From: Candidatus Latescibacterota bacterium
GTDB taxonomy: Bacteria; Latescibacterota; UBA2968
Assembly (NCBI GenBank): GCA_965204745.1
Contig: OZ242010.1
Coordinates: forward strand, 5,216,001 to 5,280,000
Length of the DNA: 64,000 bases
Direction of reading: 5' to 3'
Shown: piece by piece, positions 4,973 to 64,000 of the stretch
Position numbering within the stretch: position 1 is the stretch's first letter
Layout of the letters: every line of letters starts with the position of its first letter
Program-made: the position numbers and the translations under genes
Notes under the pieces: model-generated
Told to the model about the DNA's origin: nothing
The model's database searches: none
The model's input: only the letters and a program-made list of their open reading frames with translations

Positions 4973-5950
4973 ATGCCAAACAACAAACAAATCGTCCGTC
5001 AATTGGATATCCTCCGGGAATTTAGCACTCGGAAATACGGCGTGACCATTCGAGAACTTGCCGAGGGACAAGGCGTCTCGACGCGCACAATACACAGGGA
5101 CCTCAACGACCTGCAAGAGGCGGGCTTCTTTCTCGATGCAGAGGTGCGAGAGGGTCAAAAATACTGGAAGTTCGATCAAAATACGGACTTGCTGTCCCTG
5201 AAGTTTCCCATCGACGAAATCATCGCCTTGAAGTTTATCGAGGGCATCGTCAGTTCGCTTGCGGGAACGCCATTCAACGAGGCATTCAACAAAACCCTGA
5301 ACAGAATCCGAACGACGCTTCCCGAGGACATGCGCACGTTTTTAGCACGGGCAGGCACCGCTTATTATCCACACCAGCGCGGGCAAAAGGCGCAAATCCC
5401 GCCCGAAATATTCGCAACGGCCCATCGCGCCATCAAAGAACGCAAAATTTGCAACGTCACCTATCGCGCGATCACCACCGGGCAAACCAAAACCTACCCC
5501 ATCACGCCCTTCAGATTGTTGTATTATCACAATGGATTTTACCTTTTGTGCCGCAATCCGAATTACGGCGATTTGCTCACCCTGGCCGCAGAGCGCATTC
5601 AGGCGCTCGAAATCACAGCGCAACCCTTTGGGTATCCGCACGATCTCGACATAGAAGGCCGCGTTCAACAGGCATTCGGCATCGTCCTTGAGGACCCCAT
5701 ACCGATCAAAGTTCGATTTTCCGCATCGCAAGCCCCTTATGTCAAACAACGGATTTGGCATCCCTCGCAAGAGATCGAGGAATTGGACACCGGCGAGATC
5801 ATCCTGTCGTTTCGAGCTGGCGGCCTTCATGAAATCAAATCGTGGATCTTAAGCCACGGTGCCGAGGCAGAAGTCCTCGAGCCGCCCGGCCTGCGCGAGG
5901 AAATCACCGCGGAACTCAAAAAAAATCTGCATTTTTATCAAAAAACCTGA
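4973..5950 (+). CDS. HTH-WYL-WCX transcriptional regulator
   Basis: N-terminal wHTH (VSTRTIHRDLNDL), WYL region (PFRLLYYHNGFYL..ERI), WCX (WILSHGAEAEVLEPPGLREEI). Confidence 0.9.
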   Translation: MPNNKQIVRQLDILREFSTRKYGVTIRELAEGQGVSTRTIHRDLNDLQEAGFFLDAEVREGQKYWKFDQNTDLLSLKFPIDEIIALKFIEGIVSSLAGTPFNEAFNKTLNRIRTTLPEDMRTFLARAGTAYYPHQRGQKAQIPPEIFATAHRAIKERKICNVTYRAITTGQTKTYPITPFRLLYYHNGFYLLCRNPNYGDLLTLAAERIQALEITAQPFGYPHDLDIEGRVQQAFGIVLEDPIPIKVRFSASQAPYVKQRIWHPSQEIEELDTGEIILSFRAGGLHEIKSWILSHGAEAEVLEPPGLREEITAELKKNLHFYQKT

Positions 5951-5955
5951 TTACC

Positions 5956-5989
5956 TACGACACACCTCGTCATATCCCTTCTTTATCTT
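5956..5989 (+). promoter_or_regulatory. Putative WYL operator / WYL-activated promoter
   Basis: Near-palindrome TACGAC-N7-GTCATA, then CGTCATAT-N8-TATCTT, resembling the PafBC-type TGTCRGTG-N8-TAnnnT layout. Confidence 0.5.
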
Positions 5990-6046
5990 TAAGGCGCGTT
6001 CCAAAGAATGCGTCTTTTTTTGTGATCTATCCCCCCGGGCCCCTTT

Positions 6047-7355
6047 CCTAATCCAAAACCGACAAAAGGGGATCAACATCCTCCTCTACGGCCCTCCGGG
6101 CACGGGCAAAACCGAGTTTGCGCGCACCCTTTGCGGCGCGGTCGGAACGCGGCTCTACGCTATCGGGGACAACGAGGTCGGCGCCGAGGCGCGCCTGAGC
6201 ATCAACCGCTCACAGACCTTGGACTACGCACTCGAAGCCCTCGCAGACGAGCAGAACGCCGCGATCCTCTTCGACGAGATGGAGGATTTTCACCGCGTTG
6301 AAAAACTCTGGCTCAATCGCATTGTCGAGGAAAATCCCGTGCCGATTATCTGGGCGTGCAACGCCATTGGCTACTACCGCGTGATGCAGCCGTTCTTCAT
6401 CGACCGCATGTTGCACGCCATAGAGTTTCGCCACATGTCTGCCCAAGCGCGGCAACGCGTGTACACGGACATCCTGCACGAGACGCACCTGCCCGCCCCT
6501 GAAACGCGCCAACTCGCCGAGGAATTGGCCCGCAACGCCAAGGTCACGCCGCGGCAAGTCGCGATGGCGGTCGACCAAGCCGCGATGGTCAACGGGGATC
6601 CCGAAACCATCCGGCGCAGCGTTGCCCAAAAGGAGAAATTGCGCTATGGCATCCGCCCGCCCGACGCGCGGCCCATCGCGCAATACGATCCGTCATTGGT
6701 CCACGCCGATATCGACATGGCGGAATTGGCGGCCCGGATGGTCGCGTTGGGCCCGCGCCGGTTCGCGCTCTGCTTGAGCGGGCCGCCGGGCACGGGCAAG
6801 ACCGCGTTTGCGCGCCACATCGCCGAGCAGATGGGGATCGACATCCTGCCCAAGCGGGCGTCTGATCTTTTGGGCAAATACGTGGGCGAAACCGAGAAGC
6901 AGATCGCGTCGGCATTTGCCGAGGCGATTGAGACGCGGTCGTTTCTGGTGTTCGACGAGGTGGATTCGCTCCTCATGGATCGGCAATCTGCCCAGCGGTC
7001 GTGGGAAGTGAGCATGGTCAACGAGTTGCTCAGCCAGATGGAGCGACACCCCCTCCCCTTTGCCTGCACCACGAATCAGCGCGACGCCCTTGACCCTGCC
7101 GCTGCGCGCCGCTTCTTGTTCCGCGCCGAGTTCCGCTATCTCGATCCGCCGCGCATTCGCCGCGCGTTCGACTTGTTCTTCAATGCCAAGGCCCCTGCCC
7201 CTGTGCTCGCGCTGACCAAACTCACCCCCGCGGATTTCGCCAACATACGCGAACGCGCAGAGGTGCTCGGCTTCTTGGACGCCCCAAACCGCATCGCATC
7301 CGCCCTCGCCGACGAATGCCACGCAAAACCCGGCAACACCCCAACGGGCTTCTGA
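6047..7355 (+). pseudogene. Tandem AAA+ ATPase, N-terminally truncated
   Basis: Two Walker A (GPPGTGKT) and two Walker B (LFDE, VFDEVD) motifs; no credible start or RBS; homology begins right after a repeat fragment at 6029-6050. Confidence 0.65.
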
Positions 7356-7459
7356 CAACGGAGCGAGATACAACGGGCCGCTTTCCAAGCCCGTTCATCG
7401 CCGAATCGGAGCACAACCGCGTAGCAGTTCATTGAGGCGAGTACGTGATTATGCGGTTG

Positions 7460-7657
7460 AGTGGCCCTCTCGCCTCTCGCCTCTCCCGTCTCCCCTGCGG
7501 AGCGGTTGTGCGGTTGTGCGGCTGGTGGCCGTCTCCCCTCTTGCCTCTCCCGTCTCCCCTGCGGAGCGGTTGTGCGGCGGGGCGGACTGACCACTGACCA
7601 CTGACCACTGACCACTGGTTTTAGGCGGTTGAGTGGCAGGGTGGCCGTCTCCCCTCT
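7460..7657. repeat. Cluster of heptamer repeats (CCTCTCG/CGTCTCC/CCTCTTG; ACTGACC; GCGGTTGT) containing IS110 target sites
   Basis: Visible tandem units; the cluster continues after the IS at 8951-8995. Confidence 0.8.
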
Positions 7658-7671
7658 TGTATCTTGGAAGT

Positions 7672-7856
7672 AAGGGTTAATTAGGAGTTGCGCCCTCGTA
7701 TCGAGATAAGCCATCTTGATGCCCGGCTCGGGGAAGGCCGGCCCCTCTTGAAGGCGATGACCTTGTAGGTAAGATAGGCCCCCCGACCGCCGGGTCTATG
7801 CCGAAGAGTATCTAAGCCCCTTGAGGCTGCATATACAAGACCGGTAGACTTGGCGT
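7672..7856 (+). ncRNA. IS110 bridge RNA, copy 1 (ends approximate)
   Basis: 5' hairpin ATCGAGAT/ATCTTGAT; target loop guides CCCCTCT 7742-7748 and AGGTAAG 7767-7773; donor loop guides AGAGTATCT 7805-7813 and ATACAAG 7833-7839. Confidence 0.9.
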
Positions 7857-7924
7857 CAATGGTCGGGACGCGACCCCGAGCGCGCACCAGATCCCTTACA
7901 ACCCCCTCATCACAGGAGGCCCCC

Positions 7925-8932
7925 ATGTCGAAATCTCACCCCGCTTTTGCCGGCATTGATGTCAGTGCCCGCACGTTGTCCGTTGCCCTGTCCAGACCCG
8001 GACAAGCTGTCATGCAAGCGACCTTTGCCAATGATCCCCAAGCGCATAAGCGGTTGCTGAAGTGGCTCACGAAGGGCGGGCACATGGTCTCTGTGTGCCT
8101 CGAAGCGACCGGGCTTTACAGTTTGGGGGTGGCCTTGGCCTTGCATCGGCATCGCCACACAAAGGTCATGGTCGTCAATCCCAAAGCGATGAGCAAGTAC
8201 GCCCAAGCCTGCATGCAACGGGCGAAGACGGATGCGAAGGATGCGTTGTTGATCCTCGACTATGCCGAGCGCATGCCTTTTGTGCCTTGGCAAGCGCCGA
8301 GCGAGCAACGGCTTCAACTGCAAGCCCTCACCAGACGCATTGACCAACTCAAGCAGGAGATCATCCGCGAACAGAGCCGCAACCACGCGCAGAGCTACCA
8401 CATCCGCAGCACACGTCTCATCGCACGCGATATTCAGGTGAATATTCGACACTTCAAACGCCGGATTGCATACTTGGAAAGCCAAGCCCTCGATCTCGTT
8501 TTGCACGATGAGCCCCTCAAGCGTGCCTACCAACGCCTCTGCTCGACGCCTGGCATCGCGCAAACGAGTGCCTTGCGGCTCTTGGCCGAGTTGACCCTTT
8601 TGCCAGAGGAGATGCAACCGCCCCAGTGGGTCGCACATGCAGGCCTGGATCCCAAACCCAAACAATCCGGAACCGCCAATCCACAAAGACGCATCTCGAA
8701 AACCGGGAATAAGTACCTCCGCCATGCCCTCTATATGCCTGCCTGGGTGGCCATCAGACACGAAGGCCATGTCAAAGCCTTCTATGACCAACTCATCGCC
8801 CGCGGCAAGAAACCTTTGCAGGCTATCGTTGCGGTGATGCGAAAGTTGCTCCATTCGATCTGGGGCATGTTGCGCCATGACCAAGATTTTGAGGGCGAAA
8901 AATTCTATCGAATCACCCCGAAAACCCCTTGA
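7925..8932 (+). CDS. IS110 family transposase / bridge recombinase
   Basis: DEDD RuvC-like motifs GIDVS, CLEATG, KTDAKD; Tnp-domain QSG serine; ISKTGNKYLR; RBS aggagg. Confidence 0.97.
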   Translation: MSKSHPAFAGIDVSARTLSVALSRPGQAVMQATFANDPQAHKRLLKWLTKGGHMVSVCLEATGLYSLGVALALHRHRHTKVMVVNPKAMSKYAQACMQRAKTDAKDALLILDYAERMPFVPWQAPSEQRLQLQALTRRIDQLKQEIIREQSRNHAQSYHIRSTRLIARDIQVNIRHFKRRIAYLESQALDLVLHDEPLKRAYQRLCSTPGIAQTSALRLLAELTLLPEEMQPPQWVAHAGLDPKPKQSGTANPQRRISKTGNKYLRHALYMPAWVAIRHEGHVKAFYDQLIARGKKPLQAIVAVMRKLLHSIWGMLRHDQDFEGEKFYRITPKTP

Positions 8933-9052
8933 CCTTTTAAGAGAGTATCTTGCCTCTTGCTTCTCCCCTCTCCCCTGTGGTTGTGCGGCGGGGCGGCGGC
9001 GAAGCCTACCATTTTTATCTTGATTTCGTTCAAATAATCGCTAACTTGGGGT

Positions 9053-9260
9053 TGTCAACCATCGAGCAGAGCCCGCATGTCGGGTAGCCTGCTGAATAGA
9101 ATAGCCTACTCAACTGGCGGCGGGTCGCTCCCGGCACCAAGGCGAATAAGTAGGACCCTTCCCGCATCTCTCTGCGTGATGGTTGACACTGCCCGGCCCC
9201 TATGCTGGCGCAGCGTCAACCTGCCTTCAATCTGTCAACCATCCACGTCAACACGCAAAG
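9053..9260 (+). ncRNA. Putative structured leader RNA with alternative pairings
   Basis: TGTCAACCATC at 9053 and 9233, its complement at 9178, hairpin 9181-9221; promoter-like TTGATT-16-TAACTT at 9020-9047. Confidence 0.5.
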
Positions 9261-9545
9261 GAGAGATGCCATGTTCATGTTCAAGAACACCTTCACTTAA
9301 CCCCCCGCAACGAGTTCCATTCTCTTTTTGTCTGACCTAACGCAATGGTTTGCACCACGCGCTCTTGCGCCCCTGCGTCGCGTCAGTCACCAACTTTCTC
9401 AAATTCCCCGTGCGTCCAAAAGTGGGCTTGATTTTGGACAGGGGAAATCATTCTGCTATGTACCCCAATCCGAAACAGAAAGCGTTGTTTGGGTTGGGCA
9501 ATGTCGCACGAGTCGCAAACCACCTGTTTCAAAGGAGATGTGTCA

Positions 9546-12109: not shown

Positions 12110-13568
12110 TAGCAACAGGGGGTCAACTGCTGTTACGATTGAGGCCGATATTTCCCTGGGTCCTGACGGTGGGGACGGTGGGGACGGTGGGGATAGCGAG
12201 ACAGTTGTCATTTCCGATTCCACGCTACGCGCTGTGATTTCGGGCAATTTAGGCAAGGCACGCCGTGCGCCTATCACCCGGGCTGACATGGCGACCTTGA
12301 GGCGGATTTACGCACGATATGAGAATATTAACGATTTGACAGGGCTTGAGTTTGCAACCAACCTGACAAGGTTAGACCTTGGCTACAACCAAATATCGGA
12401 TATCACCGCGCTAGCGGGATTAACCAAACTGACATGGTTAGACCTTCACGACAACAAGATATCGGATATCACCGCGCTAGCGGGATTAACCAAACTGGAC
12501 ACGTTAGACCTTGGCTACAGAAACCGAATATCGGATATCACCGCGCTAGCGGGATTAACCAAACTGACATGGTTAGACCTTTCCGACAACCGAATATCGG
12601 ATATCACCGCGCTAGCGGGATTAACCAAACTGACATGGTTAGACCTTCGTAGCAACCAGATATCGGATATCGCCGTGCTAGCGGGATTAACCAAACTGGA
12701 CACGTTAGACCTTGGCGGCAACCAGATATCGGATTCGGATATCGCCGCGCTAGCGGGATTAACCAAACTGACATGGTTAGACCTTGGCTATAACCACCTA
12801 TCGGATATCGCCGCACTATCGACCTTAACCAACCTGGAAGGGTTAAGGCTTTACGAGAACCACCTATCGGATATCGCCGCGCTAGCGGCCTTAACCAACC
12901 TGACAAGGTTAGACCTTCACTACAACCAAATATCGTATATCGCCGTGCTATCGGGATTAACCAAGTTGACAAGGTTAGACCTTCGCTACAACCCGTTGAG
13001 TGCCACATCAATCAACACGCACATTCCGGCCCTTCGGGCCAGAGGGGTTAGGGTGTATTTTTAGTTCAGTGGACAAGGCTTGCACCGCGAAAGGGGGTGA
13101 CTGATGGCAAAAAAGTTGCCTTCGTTCCGATTCGGGCGTAGGGTTAGGGCGTTGTTCGATTATTATTTTTCAAAAGGGGGAATTTTTCCCCGTTTATCGA
13201 ATGCTCGTGGGGCCTGGGAATCCCGTGCGGTACGGCATTCGGAAAATCACTCTCAATAGTTTTAGGTGGTCCCACCCGGCCTTCTAATTCCTCGTTTTGA
13301 GAGTGACGAGTGAATTAGAAGGCTTTTCTTGTGGGGGATTGCAATGGATGCTGTTCGTATATCCTTTGATCGTTTGGCGTGTATGGAGGGGCCCCAATAG
13401 TTGTCTAAGGAGTATTTGTGGGCGATAGCGCGGGCAATCACCGAGGCTCCTTTTGCGGAATTGCGCGGGGGGCTTTGTGATTCGATGGAGAGTCGCTATT
13501 ACGACTATGAAAAAAAGATTAAAGCGGAAGGGGCGTATCAACGCTTCTTGCAGGAAGAAGGAGGTTAG

Positions 13569-19126: not shown

Positions 19127-19260
19127 GGGCTTGGGGATGGATGAACTGGCTACTGACGACTTGAGCGAGCGCGGTTGCCTTCTCCCTTCTCCCCTCTCCC
19201 CTCTCACGCCTTTCGGCCGGGGGGTTGGGTGGACTGACCACTGACCACTTGGAGATCTTC

Positions 19261-23033: not shown

Positions 23034-23046
23034 GTTGGGTAATTTT

Positions 23047-23110
23047 CAGTGGTCAGTGGTCAGTCAGTGGTCAGTGGTCAGTAGTCAGTAGTCAGTAGTC
23101 AGTAGTCAGT
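23047..23110. repeat. Heptamer tandem repeat (CAGTGGT/CAGTAGT)n
   Basis: Reverse complement of the ACTGACC arrays near 7586, 19234 and 32851-33033. Confidence 0.85.
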
Positions 23111-23516: not shown

Positions 23517-23594
23517 GATAAGGAGCGACTATTCCAGTTTCTCAAGGGGAGGCAGGGTGGCCCTCTTCCGTCTCCCCTCTTGTATCTTGGAAGT

Positions 23595-23779
23595 AAGGGT
23601 TAATTAGGAGTTGCGCCCTCGTATCGAGATAAGCCATCTTGATGCCCGGCTCGGGGAAGGCCGGCCCCTCTTGAAGGCGATGACCTTGTAGGTAAGATAG
23701 GCCCCCCGACCGCCGGGTCTATGCCGAAGAGTATCTAAGCCCCTTGAGGCTGCATATACAAGACCGGTAGACTTGGCGT
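23595..23779 (+). ncRNA. IS110 bridge RNA, copy 2 (ends approximate)
   Basis: Same as 7672-7856, offset +15923. Confidence 0.9.
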
Positions 23780-23847
23780 CAATGGTCGGGACGCGACCCC
23801 GAGCGCGCACCAGATCCCTTACAACCCCCTCATCACAGGAGGCCCCC

Positions 23848-24855
23848 ATGTCGAAATCTCACCCCGCTTTTGCCGGCATTGATGTCAGTGCCCGCACGTT
23901 GTCCGTTGCCCTGTCCAGACCCGGACAAGCTGTCATGCAAGCGACCTTTGCCAATGATCCCCAAGCGCATAAGCGGTTGCTGAAGTGGCTCACGAAGGGC
24001 GGGCACATGGTCTCTGTGTGCCTCGAAGCGACCGGGCTTTACAGTTTGGGGGTGGCCTTGGCCTTGCATCGGCATCGCCACACAAAGGTCATGGTCGTCA
24101 ATCCCAAAGCGATGAGCAAGTACGCCCAAGCCTGCATGCAACGGGCGAAGACGGATGCGAAGGATGCGTTGTTGATCCTCGACTATGCCGAGCGCATGCC
24201 TTTTGTGCCTTGGCAAGCGCCGAGCGAGCAACGGCTTCAACTGCAAGCCCTCACCAGACGCATTGACCAACTCAAGCAGGAGATCATCCGCGAACAGAGC
24301 CGCAACCACGCGCAGAGCTACCACATCCGCAGCACACGTCTCATCGCACGCGATATTCAGGTGAATATTCGACACTTCAAACGCCGGATTGCATACTTGG
24401 AAAGCCAAGCCCTCGATCTCGTTTTGCACGATGAGCCCCTCAAGCGTGCCTACCAACGCCTCTGCTCGACGCCTGGCATCGCGCAAACGAGTGCCTTGCG
24501 GCTCTTGGCCGAGTTGACCCTTTTGCCAGAGGAGATGCAACCGCCCCAGTGGGTCGCACATGCAGGCCTGGATCCCAAACCCAAACAATCCGGAACCGCC
24601 AATCCACAAAGACGCATCTCGAAAACCGGGAATAAGTACCTCCGCCATGCCCTCTATATGCCTGCCTGGGTGGCCATCAGACACGAAGGCCATGTCAAAG
24701 CCTTCTATGACCAACTCATCGCCCGCGGCAAGAAACCTTTGCAGGCTATCGTTGCGGTGATGCGAAAGTTGCTCCATTCGATCTGGGGCATGTTGCGCCA
24801 TGACCAAGATTTTGAGGGCGAAAAATTCTATCGAATCACCCCGAAAACCCCTTGA
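23848..24855 (+). CDS. IS110 family transposase / bridge recombinase
   Basis: Protein identical to 7925-8932. Confidence 0.97.
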   Translation: MSKSHPAFAGIDVSARTLSVALSRPGQAVMQATFANDPQAHKRLLKWLTKGGHMVSVCLEATGLYSLGVALALHRHRHTKVMVVNPKAMSKYAQACMQRAKTDAKDALLILDYAERMPFVPWQAPSEQRLQLQALTRRIDQLKQEIIREQSRNHAQSYHIRSTRLIARDIQVNIRHFKRRIAYLESQALDLVLHDEPLKRAYQRLCSTPGIAQTSALRLLAELTLLPEEMQPPQWVAHAGLDPKPKQSGTANPQRRISKTGNKYLRHALYMPAWVAIRHEGHVKAFYDQLIARGKKPLQAIVAVMRKLLHSIWGMLRHDQDFEGEKFYRITPKTP

Positions 24856-24894
24856 CCTTTTAAGAGAGTATCTTACCTCTCACGCCTTACCGTC

Positions 24895-32829: not shown

Positions 32830-33035
32830 TTTGGGGGCTGTTGGGCGGGGACTGACCACTTGGCGGTCAGGGGTTGGATGGGAACTGACCACTGACCCTT
32901 ACCTCTTCGGGCGGGCACGGGAGCACCGCCCCTGCGGTCTCAATGTTTCGATTTTGGGGTGGCTAGGCGGGGACTGACCACTGACAACTGACCACTTGGT
33001 GGTCGGGGATTGGATGGGAACTGACCACTGACCAG
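32830..33035. repeat. Duplicated intergenic block with ACTGACC heptamers and a REP-like palindrome
   Basis: 32827-32898 resembles 32951-33033. Confidence 0.7.
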
Positions 33036-60305: not shown

Positions 60306-63300
60306 ATGACGACCTATCGCCCTTTTAGCTCCGTTCTTCTGCTCTGCACCCTGCTCGTTGTCTGTGGCGAATCCGCCGCGCAGAATACCGCTTCAAGCGA
60401 TGCGGACCTGAGCGGCCTGACGCTCTCGGCAGGGACGCTGGCTCCGGCCTTTGCCCGCGACTCTCTCGCCTACACCGCGACCGTGGCGAACAGCATCGAC
60501 AGCCTGACCGTTATGCCGACGAGCAACCACAACGGCGCCACGATCACGGTGAACGGCACTTCGGTATCGAGTGGCAGTGCGAGCAGTGCCATCTCCCTCA
60601 GTGTGGGCGAAAACACCATTACCATAGTGGTCACAGCAGAAGATGGGAAGATGACGAAAACCTACACAGTGACCGTTGAGCGCGGCGTGAACATCCCCGA
60701 CGCCAACTTGCGTGCTGTCATTGAGGGCGCACTAGAAAAATTGAGCGGTGCGATCATTACCCCAAGTGAGATGGCGACCCTGACGACCCGCCTTGATGCT
60801 GCGTATCAGAACATTAGTGATTTGACCGGGCTGGAGTATGCAACCCGCCTGGATTCTCTGATTCTTCACCACAACCGCATCTCTGATATCTCGGCCCTGT
60901 CGGGCTTAACCAGCCTGAAAGAGCTGGATCTTTGGAGCAACCGCATCTCTGATATCTCGGCCCTGTCGGGCTTAACCAGCCTGACAGCTCTGAATCTTTG
61001 GAGGAACAGCATCTCTGATATCTCGGCCCTGTCGGGCTTAACCAGCCTGACATTGCTGACTCTTTCCGGCAACCGTATCTCTGATATCTCGGCCCTGTCG
61101 GGCTTAACCAGCCTGAAAGGGCTGGATCTTCAACGCATCAACATCTCTGATATCTCTGCCCTGTCGGGCTTAACCAGCCTGACATTCCTGCGGCTTGAAG
61201 ACAACAGCATCTTTGATATCTCGGCCCTGTCGGGCTTAACCAGCCTGAAATATCTGTATATTAACAACAACCACATCTCTGATATCTCGGCTCTGTCGGG
61301 CTTAACCAGCCTGATAGAGCTGTATCTTCACGACAACCACATCTCTGATATCTCGGCTCTGTCGGGCTTAACCAGCCTGAAATATCTGTATCTTGACAAC
61401 AACCGCATCTCTGATATCTCGGCCCTGTCGGGCTTAACCAGCCTGAGCGCTCTGTATATTAAGGGTAATCCCTTGAGCTATCCTTCCTTCATTACCCACA
61501 TCCCGGCTCTAAAGCACCGAGGCGTCAATGTATACTATCATTTTCGACCCCTGGCCAGTTTGGTAAAAATCTCGGGCGATGACCAAACCGGCACGGCTGG
61601 TTCTCGCCTGTCCGATCCGCTCATCGTTGAAGTCCGGGGTGAGAACGACGTTGCCTTTGCCGGGGTGCCGGTCACTTTTTCGGTCACGGCGGGCGGTGGG
61701 TCGCTCAGTACCACAACCGATACAACCGATGCCAATGGTCGCGCCTCGACAAGGTTGACGCTGGGTGCTACGGGCGCAGACACGGTTGTAGCGGCTATCG
61801 ACGTCTCGAACATTGACAAGTCCGTGACCTTCACCACGGCAACAGGTGGGACAGCGGACCTGAAAGGCTTGACACTCTCGGCAGGGACGCTGGTTCCGGC
61901 CTTCGCCCGCGACTCTCTCTCCTACACGGCGACCGTGGCGAACAGCACAACCAGTCTGACCGTCACGCCGACGAGCAATCACAACGGTGCCACGATCACA
62001 GTGAACGGCACTTCGGTATCGAGTGGCAGTGCGAGTAGTGCCATTTCCCTCAGTGTGGGCGAAAACACCATTACCATAGTGGTTGCCGCAGAGGATGGGA
62101 TCACGACGAAAACCTACACAGTGACCGTTGGGCACGGCGTGAACATCCCCGACGCCAACTTGCGTGTTGCCATTGAGGGCGCACTGAAAAAAACGAGCGG
62201 TGCGATCATTACCCCAAGTGAGATGGCGACCCTAACCCACCTTTATGCTAGGGGGATTAGGTTCTGTTGACATTTTGTTTTAGAGCGATGAGCGTGGCCG
62301 CAAAAGCGAGAAAGCCTCGATAACTCGTGCTGAGTTTCTCAAAGCGAGCGAATATCCTGCGATACTGCTTCATTTTTCCAATCAACCGCTCAATCAAATT
62401 GCGTTGCTTATACCGATGGCGATCATAATCACGCGGGGTCTTGCGATAAGACCGGGGCGGAATCACGGCAACCTGTCCATGGTGAGAAAGGACGTCCAGA
62501 AACGCTTGTGAATCATAGCCCTTATCCGCGATGACAGATCGGCTCTCATACCCAGCGATTAACGCTTCGGCTTGCGTGATATCGTGGGTTTGTCCCGGTG
62601 TGAGTCGAAACCGGAGCGGGAGGCCACGCGCATCTGTGCAGAGATGGATTTTGGTGCTGAACCCGCCTCGGCTCTTGCCGAGGGCTTGCGCGGCTTGCCC
62701 CCCTTTTTTTTTGAGGCACCCGCTGCACAGGCATGAGCACGCACGACAGTGCTGTCAATGATCAGACATGCCAAGTCTGGATCAGACGTAAAATGCTGGT
62801 GCATGCGTTCCCACACGCCATACCGGCACCAGCGAGCAAAGCGTTTATAGACTGTGTTCCACTTCCCGTACTGTGCGGGCAACTGACGCCACTGACCACC
62901 CGAGCGCATCACCCACAGAACCGCTTCAATGAAGCGTTTGCAACCGGCTTCCTCGCCGACATAGACGCGAGGGCATTCGCGGATGAATGCGAGAATTTTA
63001 GGCCACTGATTCGGAGAAAGAATAAGGTTTGACATACACACAGAGTAACTCAAAATATCCCAAATGTCAACAGAACCTAGTGATATGACCGGGCTTGAGT
63101 ATGCAATCAGCCTGGATACGCTGAATCTTCGCACCACCAACATCTCTGATATCTCTGCCCTGTCGGGCTTAACCAGCCTGAAAGTGCTGATTATTAGCGA
63201 CAACGGCAACACCACCCCCCTCTCTGATATCTCTGCCCTGTCGGGCTTAACCAGCCTGAAAAAGCTGATTATTGGCGGCTACAGCAACACCAACATCTCT

Positions 63301-64000
63301 GATATCTCTGCCCTGTCGGGCTTAACCAGCCTGACATTTCTGAATCTTGCCGCCAACAACATCTCTGATATCTCTGCCCTGTCGGGCTTAACCAGCCTGA
63401 CATCTCTGGGTCTTCACTACAACCGCATCTCTGATATCTCTGCCCTGTCGGGCTTAACCAGCCTGACAGGTCTGAATCTTTCCTACAACCGCATCTCTGA
63501 TATCTCTGCCCTGTCGGGCTTAACCAGCCTGACAGGTCTGGACATTAGGGCTAATCCCTTGAGCTATCCCTCCCTCACTACCCACATCCCGGCTCTCCAG
63601 AGCCGAGGCGTTTATGTAAGCTACGATACCCGCACCGTGACCAGTTTTATAAAAACCTCGGGCGATGACCAAACCGGCACGGCTGGTTCTAGCCTGTCCT
63701 ATCCGTTCAGAGTTCAAGTGTGGAGTCAGGGCAACTTTCCCGGGTTTGCCGGGGTGCCGGTCGCCTTTTCGGTCACGGCGGGCGGTGGGTCGCTCAGTAC
63801 CACAACCGATACCACCGATGCCTATGGTCGCGCCTCGACGAGGTTGACGCTGGGTGCTGCGGGCGCGAATACAGTTAAGGCAATTATCGACGTCTCGGAC
63901 ATTGACAAGTCCGTGACCTTCACCGCCACGGCAATAGATGTGACAACGGACCTGAAATTGACACTCTCGGCAGGGACCCTGAAATTGACACTCTCGGCAG
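60306..64000 (+). pseudogene. Large secreted cadherin-like beta-sandwich / LRR / Ig-like repeat protein, interrupted by IS5; runs off the window
   Basis: Signal peptide; repeated ADLSGLTLS..TKTYTVTV domains; 22-aa LRRs; IS removal restores ..ARGI-SDMTGLEYA. Confidence 0.88.
62260..63077 (-). mobile_element. IS5-family element, copy 2, 818 bp, TA duplication
   Basis: TIR GGTTCTGTTGACA; TA at 62258-62259 and 63078-63079; about 3 substitutions versus copy 1. Confidence 0.93.

What the first reader, a model, noticed from the sequence alone, without database searches (positions are those of the whole stretch)
7658..8950. IS110 element with a fully decodable bridge RNA (RNA-guided recombinase), present in two copies
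Seen: the ~270-nt non-coding left end folds into a 5' hairpin and two internal loops. Loop 1 (closed by GGCC/GGCC, inner stem AAGG/CCTT) carries CCCCTCT (7742-7748), identical to the left target flank through the CT core. It also carries AGGTAAG (7767-7773), the reverse complement of CTTACCT, the right flank of copy 2; copy 1 has CTTGCCT, explained by one G-U wobble. Loop 2 (GTCTA/TAGAC and CCG/CGG stems, inner AGCC/GGCT) carries AGAGTATCT (7805-7813), the right element end, and ATACAAG (7833-7839), the reverse complement of CTTGTAT, i.e. core plus left end. All four guides thus match the two real insertion sites and the circle junction AGAGTAT-CT-TGTAT. The DEDD and QSG catalytic motifs are intact. 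Known: this is the IS621-type bridge RNA mechanism, so the class is described. Inference: this ortholog and its target specificity may be new; identical copies imply recent activity, making it a candidate programmable recombinase.
Basis: partly seen in the sequence, partly recalled or inferred. Interest (0 to 1): 0.95.

Follow-up and report, generated by a model that had tools for sequence, protein, structure and literature searches.

The report
Bridge-RNA insertion sequence, 52 copies
This is a small jumping gene of the known IS110 type whose own RNA appears to guide it into short seven-base repeats of its host genome; it looks recently active, but it is a new example of a mechanism described in 2024, not a new mechanism.

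Summary
Window 7658-8950 is a 1293-bp IS110-family element, and 23581-24873 is an identical copy. It has a 267-nt non-coding left end and a 335-aa DEDD/Ser recombinase.

The whole genome (a Latescibacterota chromosome, judged from its relatives) holds 52 full-length copies, 30 of them identical, plus 7 truncated ones.

The fold is supported by covariation in 16 left ends from 10 genomes: 16 of 32 pairs show compensatory change, and 0 of 500 shuffles reach the observed values.

The guides covary with the real insertion flanks. Across 87 copies and 17 loop types, cognate pairs score 8.96 of 10 against 5.25 for non-cognate pairs, and 0 of 100,000 permutations reach that. Within this one genome, single-base guide changes track changed targets.

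Targets are heptamer tandem arrays. Perfect sites are 20 of 25 occupied; G-U wobble sites are 17 of 82 occupied.

No RNA or circle-junction data could be obtained.

Verdict: a real, recently expanded bridge-RNA element. It is a new member of a known kind, of moderate interest.

The parts
7658..8950 (+). IS110-family element, copy 1 (1293 bp, counted with one CT core at its right end)
   Evidence: Boundaries come from the identity break between the two window copies and from 52 genomic copies with different flanks.
23581..24873 (+). IS110-family element, copy 2, 100% identical to copy 1
   Evidence: The orthologous site in the related genome G091 has no element.
7651..7657 (+). Left target half-site CCCCT plus core CT of copy 1
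   Evidence: Identical to LTG 7742-7748. 41 of the 45 copies with this target loop have this left flank.
8951..8955 (+). Right target half-site TGCCT of copy 1 (TACCT at 24874-24878 for copy 2)
   Evidence: Complementary to RTG 7767-7771, with one rU-dG wobble for TGCCT. Of 45 copies, 24 have TACCT and 17 have TGCCT.
7698..7722 (+). 5' hairpin of the putative bridge RNA
   Evidence: MFE fold. It is kept in the G000 variants, but no common hairpin is seen among distant orthologs.
7726..7732 (+). 5' strand of a closing helix; it pairs with 7869 and 7876-7881 and encloses both loops
   Evidence: RNAalifold consensus. 4 of the 6 pairs of the main run have compensatory changes.
7736..7780 (+). Target-binding loop module: outer stem GGCC/GGCC and inner stem-loop 7751-7764
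   Evidence: The inner stem is 100% paired, with 2 of 4 pairs compensatory.
7742..7749 (+). Left target guide CCCCTCT (LT plus core), plus one further T that matches the first base of RT
   Evidence: Same sense as the target top strand. Subfamily v5 changes both base 1 and the extra base, and its flanks change to match.
7767..7773 (+). Right target guide AGGTAAG, the reverse complement of CT+TACCT
7774..7775 (+). Handshake guide AU of the target loop; it pairs with donor positions 6-7 (AT of ...GTAT-CT)
   Evidence: Both bases pair in 11 of 12 representative rows. L034 is compensatory (GU with AC). The rule is taken from PMC11208158.
7789..7854 (+). Donor-binding loop module: outer stem 7789-7803 with 7842-7854, inner stem-loop 7815-7828
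   Evidence: 9 of the 13 outer-stem pairs have compensatory changes.
7805..7813 (+). Left donor guide AGAGTATCT, identical to the right element end plus core
   Evidence: In L034 the guide and the right end change together (GAAAACC in both).
7833..7839 (+). Right donor guide ATACAAG, the reverse complement of CT+TGTAT (core plus left end)
7840..7841 (+). Handshake guide AC of the donor loop; its first base pairs with target position 7 (T)
   Evidence: By lineage: 7 Watson-Crick, 2 wobble and 1 mismatch among 10.
7914..7919 (+). Shine-Dalgarno-like AGGAGG
   Evidence: Direct reading. It is conserved in the close relatives.
7925..8932 (+). Recombinase gene, 335 aa
   Evidence: Pfam PF01548 (E 1e-24) and PF02371 (E 5e-20). 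PDB hits to the ISCro4 transposase (E 8e-40) and the IS621 transposase (E 6e-36) over the full length. The ORF is intact in 51 of 52 copies.
8929..8934 (+). TTGACC, the putative -35 box that would face TATCTT (7660-7665) across the circle junction
   Evidence: TTGA is kept at a fixed distance from the right end in 12 of 12 representative rows. The spacer would be 18 nt here and 17 nt in 10 of 12 rows. Inferred, not shown.
8942..8950 (+). Right end (left donor AGAGTAT) plus core CT
7535..7546 (+). Unoccupied cognate target CCCCTCTTGCCT, 112 bp upstream of copy 1, inside a 64-bp duplication
   Evidence: It is the only such site in the window.

Best explanation
The element is an IS621-like member of the IS110 family. 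Its left end encodes a bridge RNA of about 160-210 nt with two internal loops.

The target loop would read 12 bp of host DNA. [quoted passage not shown] The donor loop would read the element's own joined ends, AGAGTAT-CT-TGTAT, in the same two-strand way. Two-base handshake guides after each 3' guide would pair with the opposite DNA after strand exchange.

The DEDD/Ser recombinase would then exchange strands at the CT core and insert the element without duplicating more than the core.

The host genome offers hundreds of heptamer arrays that contain this 12-mer, and the element has multiplied to 52 full copies. Sister subfamilies and orthologs have shifted to other sites by changing only guide bases.

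Shown here: anatomy, conserved fold, guide-flank covariation, copy number, and site occupancy. Inferred by homology with IS621: RNA expression from a junction promoter, a circular or copy-out intermediate, and the catalysis itself.
For: 1. Protein. Both IS110 domains are present. The protein aligns over its full length to the IS621 and ISCro4 recombinases, with the catalytic D/E/D/D and SG in register.

2. Fold. RNAalifold on 16 left ends from 10 genomes recovers the two internal-loop hairpins and a closing helix. 93.5% of cells are paired, against 25-49% when the partners are slid. 16 of 32 pairs carry compensatory changes. 0 of 500 shuffles reach any of the five measures.

3. Guide orientation matches the published rule: the 5' side reads the bottom strand, the 3' side reads the top strand, and the core is read by all four guides (PMC11208160 passages; sequence).

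4. Covariation within the genome.
- Subfamily v5 has LTG TCCCTCT-C and RTG AGGTGAG, and its flanks are TCCCTCT | CACCT.
- Subfamilies v7 and v9 have LTG CGCCTCT and RTG AAGTAAG. Their left flanks are CGCCTCT in 3 of 4 copies and CACCTCT (a wobble) in 1. Their right flanks are TACTT in 3 of 4.
- Subfamily v8 has LTG TGCCTCT and a left flank TACCTCT (a wobble).

5. Covariation across genomes. 87 copies fall into 17 target-loop types. The cognate score is 8.96 of 10 against 5.25 for non-cognate pairs, and 0 of 100,000 permutations reach the observed mean. Right half-sites as different as TTTCT, AACGT, CATAC, CACTT, CACGC and AACGG are each mirrored in their own guide.

6. Donor side. In L034 the donor guide, the right end and the handshake guide change together.

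7. Occupancy falls as guide match falls.
- CCCCTCT+TACCT: 20 occupied, 5 empty.
- CCCCTCT+TGCCT: 17 occupied, 65 empty (Fisher p = 1.2e-7).
- TACCTCT+TACCT: 4 occupied, 83 empty.

8. Recent activity. 30 identical copies lie in different flanks, 51 of 52 ORFs are intact, and the orthologous site in a 95%-identical relative is empty.
Against: - No RNA evidence exists: no listed sequencing run is on record as RNA.
- No circle junction and no empty-site joint appeared in the contigs of four runs. Contigs are poorly suited to show either.
- The promoter scan found no sigma-70-like site in the integrated left end. The junction promoter is inferred only, and its spacer here would be 18 nt rather than 17.
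- 8 of the 45 copies with this target loop lie at imperfect sites.
- Copy v6 (G000 602782) has guides that mismatch its flanks at 3 positions.
- G091 elements pair only about 3 of 5 right-target bases.
- The single-sequence fold is only modestly better than shuffles, with z = -2.25.
- Rfam has no matching family.
- Related copies are not independent, so the permutation figures overstate significance.
Confidence: 0.93

Rival explanations
1. The element is a genuine IS110 copy, but the loop-to-flank matches are a by-product of pyrimidine-rich, low-complexity sequence. On this view the protein, not an RNA, picks heptamer arrays.
For: The targets are simple repeats. Non-cognate guide-site pairs among the heptamer-targeting types still score 7-9 of 10 (matrix). 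No RNA was observed.
Against: Orthologs that insert outside heptamer arrays carry equally matched guides. L030, L031, L032, L034, L035 and L036 score 8-10 of 10 with their own flanks, against 2-6 with others. Single-base guide changes track flank changes inside one genome. Homologous proteins were shown experimentally to be RNA-guided (PMC11208160 and PMC11208158).
Confidence: 0.03
2. The structured left end is mainly a 5' UTR that controls translation of the recombinase, and its guide-like matches are secondary.
For: The structure lies directly upstream of the Shine-Dalgarno site (7914-7919). No terminator separates it from the gene.
Against: A UTR role does not explain why the loop bases, which are unpaired in the fold, covary with DNA outside the element and with the element's own ends. 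The two roles are not exclusive.
Confidence: 0.02
3. The element is now dead. The identical copies arose by gene conversion or segmental duplication, not by recent transposition.
For: No circle junction or polymorphic empty site was seen in the contigs. The junction-promoter spacer is one base longer than in most relatives.
Against: The 30 identical copies have different flanks that end exactly at the element boundaries. 51 of 52 ORFs are intact. Runs from four studies hold the element with differing flanks (loose ends).
Confidence: 0.05

Closest known systems
IS621 (E. coli) with its bridge RNA
   Same: The domain order and catalytic residues match. The non-coding RNA sits in the left end. 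There are two internal loops, with 5' guides reading the bottom strand and 3' guides reading the top strand, a CT core and handshake guides. The donor bases that the IS621 paper names (positions 6, 7, 8, 9, 10 and 12 = A, T, C, T, T, T) are the same here.
   Different: The protein is distantly related: phmmer E = 6e-36, with roughly a third of aligned residues identical by eye. The left target guide pairs 5 LT bases plus the core plus 1 further base, where IS621 pairs 7 plus the core. The right target guide pairs 7 bases, where IS621 has 4. A covarying closing helix encloses both loops; I did not compare this with IS621. The target is a heptamer tandem array. The genome holds 52 copies.
ISCro4 / IS622 (Citrobacter rodentium), the ortholog developed for human-cell editing
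   Same: It is the best PDB hit (9t56, E 8e-40) and has the same architecture according to the preprint passages read.
   Different: It is equally distant in sequence. Activity outside the native host is unknown for this element.
REP-targeting IS110 elements of Pseudomonas putida (ISPpu9, ISPpu10)
   Same: They insert into a multicopy intergenic host repeat (abstracts only). The G082 relatives here also sit in a repeat-like context.
   Different: The repeat used here is a heptamer tandem array, not a palindromic REP. One 12-bp target equals the last five bases of one unit plus the next whole unit.
IS1111 subgroup with seekRNA
   Same: The recombinase family is the same.
   Different: As I recall, the guide RNA of IS1111 elements lies downstream of the gene. 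Here only 18 bases follow the stop codon, and the RNA lies upstream.

Membership tests
IS110 family insertion sequence | N-terminal RuvC-like DEDD domain (PF01548) | tested here: met
   E 1.2e-24, 87 bits against a cut-off of 29. D12, E60, D103 and D106 align with the IS621 DEDD residues.
IS110 family insertion sequence | C-terminal Tnp domain (PF02371) with the conserved Ser-Gly | tested here: met
   E 4.8e-20. S248-G249 align with S241-G242 of IS621.
IS110 family insertion sequence | No terminal inverted repeats; only a 2-bp core is shared by both junctions | tested here: met
   Direct reading of the ends (TGTATCTTGG... and ...AGAGTATCT) and of 52 pairs of flanks. No repeat-finder run was made.
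IS110 subgroup (as against IS1111) | Long non-coding left end upstream of the gene and a very short right end | tested here: met
   267 nt lie before the ATG and 18 nt after the stop codon.
IS621-type bridge RNA | Two stem-enclosed internal loops, each with an inner stem-loop, conserved by covariation | tested here: met
   32 pairs, 16 with compensatory change, 93.5% of cells paired, 0 of 500 shuffles reach the observed values.
IS621-type bridge RNA | The first loop's 5' side equals LT plus core, and its 3' side is complementary to core plus RT | tested here: met
   37 of the 45 copies with this loop lie at the fully matching or wobble-matching 12-mer.
IS621-type bridge RNA | The second loop reads the RE-core-LE junction in the same way | tested here: met
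   There is a compensatory change in L034 and a wobble change in L035.
IS621-type bridge RNA | Handshake guides: the two bases 3' of each 3' guide pair with positions 6-7 of the opposite DNA | tested here: met
   Target-loop HSG: both bases pair in 11 of 12 rows. Donor-loop HSG first base: 7 Watson-Crick, 2 wobble and 1 mismatch in 10 lineages. The second base often does not pair.
IS621-type bridge RNA | A promoter is assembled across the RE-LE junction | tested here: inconclusive
   A -35-like TTGACC lies in the right end at a conserved distance, with TATCTT in the left end. The TTGA overlaps the stop codon, so conservation may have another cause. No expression data are available.
IS621-type bridge RNA | The RNA is made and is needed for recombination; the guides can be reprogrammed | not testable with these tools
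   No RNA run is listed. An experiment is needed.
IS621-type bridge RNA | A circular (or copy-out) intermediate with joined ends | tested here: inconclusive
   no joints in the contigs of 4 runs. Contigs drop rare forms.

The most novel reading that the evidence does not exclude
The element and the host's heptamer arrays may be linked more closely than parasite and landing pad. The element's own joined ends (...AGTATCT|TGTATCTT) are heptamer-like: they share 10 of 15 positions with the target CCCCTCT|TGCCTCTT. Donor and target are therefore near-homologous.

On this reading the arrays are seeded or extended by the element's own strand-transfer reactions. Alternatively, the target loop arose as a lightly edited copy of the donor loop.

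A weaker, more likely version is this. The lineage is a distinct structural variant of the bridge RNA, with a closing helix and a left target guide that reads one base past the core. Its subfamilies partition heptamer variants within one genome.
Probability: 0.07. Interest if true: 0.75.

Novelty: new member of a known kind. Interest (0 to 1): 0.45.

Why it matters
Bridge recombinases are being developed as programmable tools for inserting, deleting and inverting DNA, and few orthologs have been tested.

- This one is compact: 335 aa plus an RNA of under 210 nt.
- It comes from an uncultured Latescibacterota lineage. The runs that hold it are labelled sponge or marine metagenomes.
- It has clearly multiplied recently.
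- Its 45 same-guide insertions, set against 158 counted empty sites of three match classes, give a natural in-vivo measure of how much a U-G wobble or a mismatched half-site costs.
- Its subfamilies show guides being retargeted by single-base steps in nature.

None of this changes the known mechanism.

Tried and rejected
- Rfam 15 scan of 7000-9500 at E <= 1: no family matched. I do not know whether Rfam holds a bridge-RNA family, so this says little.
- Sequencing runs: no RNA holder listed. All 4 runs laid were Logan contigs. The element is present in all four, but no joint, circle junction or element-free bridging contig was reported.
- Promoter and terminator scan of 7500-9100: one promoter-like site inside the ORF, none in the left end, no terminator.
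- Cumulative GC skew gave no clear origin or terminus, so insertion orientation could not be related to replication.
- The strand of the 45 near-identical (over 96% identical) copies is 13 plus and 32 minus. That of the empty sites is 28 plus and 42 minus. The difference is not significant (p = 0.24).
- A 5' hairpin common to all orthologs was looked for and not found. Each folds into some hairpin, but not a shared one.
- The protein search returned 3553 relatives. The only names given were 'transposase' or 'IS110 family transposase'.
- Literature. 'bridge RNA' with 'Latescibacter' gave 0 papers. 'Latescibacter' with 'sponge' and 'insertion sequence' gave 0 papers. In the search on IS110, 'tandem repeat' and 'heptanucleotide', none of the 15 papers listed (of 136 holding at least 2 of the 3 terms) held both IS110 and 'heptanucleotide'.
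- The first regular expression for the donor loop failed on most rows. It was rewritten.
- IS621 DNA could not be fetched, so no direct RNA-to-RNA comparison with the IS621 bridge RNA was made.
Full report
**What is in the sequence.** Window 7658-8950 reads TGTATCTTGG... to ...AGAGTATCT. It is flanked by ...GTCTCCCCTCT on the left and TGCCTCTTG... on the right. A second stretch, 23581-24873, is identical over all 1293 bases. The flanks share 13 bases on the left and 1 base on the right, where copy 2 reads TACCTCT.

The element has three parts:
- a 267-nt non-coding left end;
- a Shine-Dalgarno-like AGGAGG at 7914-7919;
- a 335-aa ORF at 7925-8932, with only 18 bases after its stop codon.

The ORF carries both IS110 domains, PF01548 and PF02371. 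It aligns over its full length with the two bridge recombinases of known structure: the ISCro4 transposase (9t56, E 8e-40) and the IS621 transposase (8wt6, E 6e-36). D12, E60, D103, D106 and S248-G249 stand where IS621 has D11, E60, D102, D105 and S241-G242.

**Copy number and host.** The window lies in a single-contig genome of 5.48 Mb. BLAST of the element against it gives 52 full-length copies:

| Identity to the window copy | Copies |
|---|---|
| 100% | 30 |
| 100% apart from a one-base insertion at the very left end | 1 |
| 99.07-99.92% | 6 |
| 96.13% | 8 |
| 95.7% | 1 |
| 94.8% | 1 |
| 88.5-89.1% | 5 |

There are also fragments. 51 of the 52 ORFs are intact. A covariance model built from the RNA region finds 60 places: the 52 full copies, 7 truncated copies, and one weak donor-loop-only relic.

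The closest relatives of the recombinase lie in two chromosomes labelled Latescibacterota MAGs, at 76-84% identity. 12 of 168 genomes of the phylum have a match at E <= 1e-30. The runs that hold the element are labelled sponge or marine metagenomes, or carry coded organism names.

**The fold.** The single-sequence MFE fold shows a 5' hairpin and two internal-loop hairpins, but it is only modestly better than shuffles (z = -2.25). The stronger evidence is comparative.

I aligned 16 left ends from 10 genomes, whose recombinases are 48-100% identical to this one. RNAalifold then predicted 32 pairs:
- a closing helix, 7726-7732 with 7869 and 7876-7881;
- the outer and inner stems of the first loop;
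- a long outer stem and an inner stem for the second loop.

Counted on the alignment, 93.5% of cells pair, against 25-49% when the 3' partners are slid by 1-3 columns. 16 of 32 pairs show changes on both sides. None of 500 shuffles reaches the observed value on any of five measures. The structure was derived from this same alignment, and the sequences are related, so these controls are generous. Even so, the compensatory series in the closing helix is hard to get by chance: CTCGGG/CCCGAG, CTCTGG/CCAGAG, TGCTGG/CCAGCA and TCCCGGG/CCCGGGA. The loops themselves are unpaired and variable.

**The guides.** The passages I read of Durrant et al. 2024 (PMC11208160) state the rule. [quoted passage not shown] The first loop reads the target and the second reads the joined element ends.

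This element fits on all four counts:
- CCCCTCT at 7742-7748 equals the left flank plus core.
- AGGTAAG at 7767-7773 is the reverse complement of CT+TACCT. It pairs with CT+TGCCT through one U-G wobble.
- AGAGTATCT at 7805-7813 equals the right end plus core.
- ATACAAG at 7833-7839 is the reverse complement of CT+TGTAT.

The passages I read of Hiraizumi et al. 2024 (PMC11208158) add the handshake guides. These are the two bases after each 3' guide, which pair with positions 6-7 of the opposite DNA after strand exchange. Here AU (7774-7775) pairs with the AT before the donor core. The A at 7840 pairs with the T before the target core.

**Natural covariation inside one genome.** The subfamilies differ in their guide bases, and their insertion sites differ to match:

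| Subfamily | Copies | Left guide | Right guide | Flanks |
|---|---|---|---|---|
| v5 | 1 | TCCCTCT-C | AGGTGAG | TCCCTCT \| CACCT |
| v7 and v9 | 4 | CGCCTCT | AAGTAAG | left CGCCTCT (3), CACCTCT (1, wobble); right TACTT (3), TACCT (1) |
| v8 | 1 | TGCCTCT | AAGTAAG | left TACCTCT (wobble); right TACTT |

The v5 case also shows that the base after the core-reading CU (7749) changes together with the first base of the right half-site. In this lineage the left guide therefore seems to read one base past the core. This rests on a single copy.

One copy does not fit. v6 (G000 602782) has guides TGCCTCT and AAGTAAG but flanks TCCCTCT | CACCT. It may have been moved by another subfamily's RNA, or it may have changed after insertion. 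I could not tell which.

**Covariation across genomes.** Orthologs carry quite different loops, each mirrored in its own flanks. For example:
- G082: TCCTCCT | TTTCT.
- G128: AGCATCT | CATAC.
- G120: GAAATAGTCT | CACCT, with 10 of 10 left bases matching.
- G097: TTTCGG-CT | AACGT.
- G152: right side CACTT.
- G151: right side CACGC.
- The Gemmatimonadota contig: right side AACGG.

I scored 5 left plus 5 right non-core positions, with Watson-Crick = 1 and wobble = 0.5. The better of two left-guide registers was allowed for cognate and non-cognate pairs alike. The 17 loop types average 8.96 of 10 with their own sites and 5.25 with other types' sites. 0 of 100,000 permutations reach the observed mean.

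The weakest cognate case is G091, where only about 3 of 5 right-side bases pair.

On the donor side, L034 has changed its right end to ...GAAAACC-CT. Its donor guide and its target-loop handshake guide (GU instead of AU) have changed with it.

**Targets and occupancy.** The sites are heptamer tandem arrays. The genome has about 870 arrays of three or more YNNNTYT units, about 32 kb in all. The 12-bp target is the last five bases of one unit plus the whole next unit.

Of the 45 copies that carry this exact target loop:

| Flanks | Copies |
|---|---|
| CCCCTCT \| TACCT | 20 |
| CCCCTCT \| TGCCT | 17 |
| TACCTCT \| TACCT | 4 |
| CCCCTCT \| CCCGT | 2 |
| CCCCTCT \| TACTT | 1 |
| CCCCTCT \| TGCCC | 1 |

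Counting empty sites on both strands gives these occupancies:

| Site | Occupied | Empty | Share occupied |
|---|---|---|---|
| Perfect (CCCCTCT+TACCT) | 20 | 5 | 80% |
| Wobble (CCCCTCT+TGCCT) | 17 | 65 | 21% |
| TACCTCT+TACCT | 4 | 83 | 5% |

For perfect against wobble sites the odds ratio is 15 and Fisher p = 1.2e-7.

All eight imperfect insertions keep one half-site perfect. That fits the 'half-match' off-target behaviour reported for IS621 in a 2026 preprint, of which I read only the abstract and outline. Loss of a heptamer unit next to the element after insertion would explain some of them equally well.

One empty wobble site lies in the window at 7535-7546, 112 bp upstream of copy 1, inside a 64-bp duplication.

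The site orthologous to copy 2 in a relative whose downstream gene is 95% identical has a heptamer array but no element.

**How it probably works.** By homology with IS621, the element leaves its site as joined ends, either as a circle or by copying out the top strand. I read passages of a 2025 preprint and the abstract of a 2026 preprint; both argue for copy-and-paste.

The right end carries TTGACC (8929-8934). It would lie 18 nt from TATCTT (7660-7665) once the ends are joined. The same arrangement, with a 17-nt spacer, holds in 10 of 12 representative rows. Durrant et al. describe a natural sigma-70 promoter across the IS621 junction whose -35 box lies in the right end.

The RNA made from it would bind recombinase dimers through its two loops. 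It would pair with target and donor and place the two CT cores together. Ser248, with the DEDD site of a partner subunit, would then cleave and exchange the strands.

Thirty identical copies at distinct sites fit a mode of transposition that keeps the donor copy. All of this paragraph is inference. I have no expression data and no junction reads.

**Comparison and novelty.** The element meets every sequence-level feature that defines an IS110-subgroup element with an IS621-type bridge RNA (see the membership table). It differs from IS621 in detail:
- The left target guide is shorter, with 5 bases before the core rather than 7, plus the extra base after it.
- The right target guide has 7 bases where IS621 has 4.
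- A covarying closing helix encloses both loops. I could not compare this with IS621.
- The targets are heptamer arrays.
- The copy number is very high.

I found no paper that links bridge RNAs with Latescibacterota, or IS110 with heptanucleotide repeats. Published ortholog tables are in supplements that I could not open.

The finding is therefore a correct and unusually well-supported identification of a new member of a known kind. Its value lies in the natural specificity data and as a candidate ortholog for testing, not in a new mechanism.

Noticed in passing
whole genome G000; window 7465-7496, 19181-19205: About 870 arrays of three or more pyrimidine-rich heptamer units (TGCCTCT, CACCTCT, CCCGTCT, CCCCTCT, TACCTCT...), about 32 kb in all. 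They resemble the short tandemly repeated heptamers I recall from cyanobacteria. Their origin and function are unknown.
   Followed up: partly
window 7586-7617, 32973-32996, 23046-23110: Other heptamer tandem families (ACTGACC and its complement-like TCAGTRG) sit beside the pyrimidine-rich arrays.
   Followed up: no
window 7452-7577: A 64-bp tandem duplication (91% match) of a composite intergenic module carries the unoccupied target site 7535-7546.
   Followed up: partly
window 12356-12993, 60872-61446, 63120-63540: Long arrays with a 66-bp period (6-9.5 copies, 77-85% match). They may be 22-residue protein repeats. They were not translated or searched.
   Followed up: no
G000:C1:949233-949355 (minus strand): A weak covariance-model hit (35 bits, E 1e-5) that looks like a donor-loop module only. 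It lies beside what looks like a tRNA gene (judged by eye; no tRNA scan was run), and no ORF of 150 aa or more follows it. It is probably a relic of another IS110 element.
   Followed up: partly
G000:C1:1121591-1124180: Two copies (one of the 100% type, one of the 96% type) lie head to tail with only TACCTCT between them. The spacing fits a normal guided insertion next to an older copy rather than a dimer.
   Followed up: partly
G000:C1:602782-604074: Copy v6 carries guides that mismatch its own flanks at 3 positions, yet its flanks equal those expected for subfamily v5. Mobilisation in trans or later sequence exchange between copies is possible.
   Followed up: no
L002 and L005 (G082): Two copies in the related genome have a right end AGAGTTTCT while their donor guide still reads AGAGTATCT. 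These are probably crippled copies.
   Followed up: no
L015, L019, L020, L024 (G091): Short TGTATCTT... stretches followed by unrelated sequence lie inside heptamer arrays near full elements. They may be left-end remnants or ends of another element.
   Followed up: no
window 5859-7355: The ORF upstream of copy 1 (498 aa) shows two GPPGTGKT Walker-A motifs, so it is probably a double AAA+ ATPase. It was not searched.
   Followed up: no
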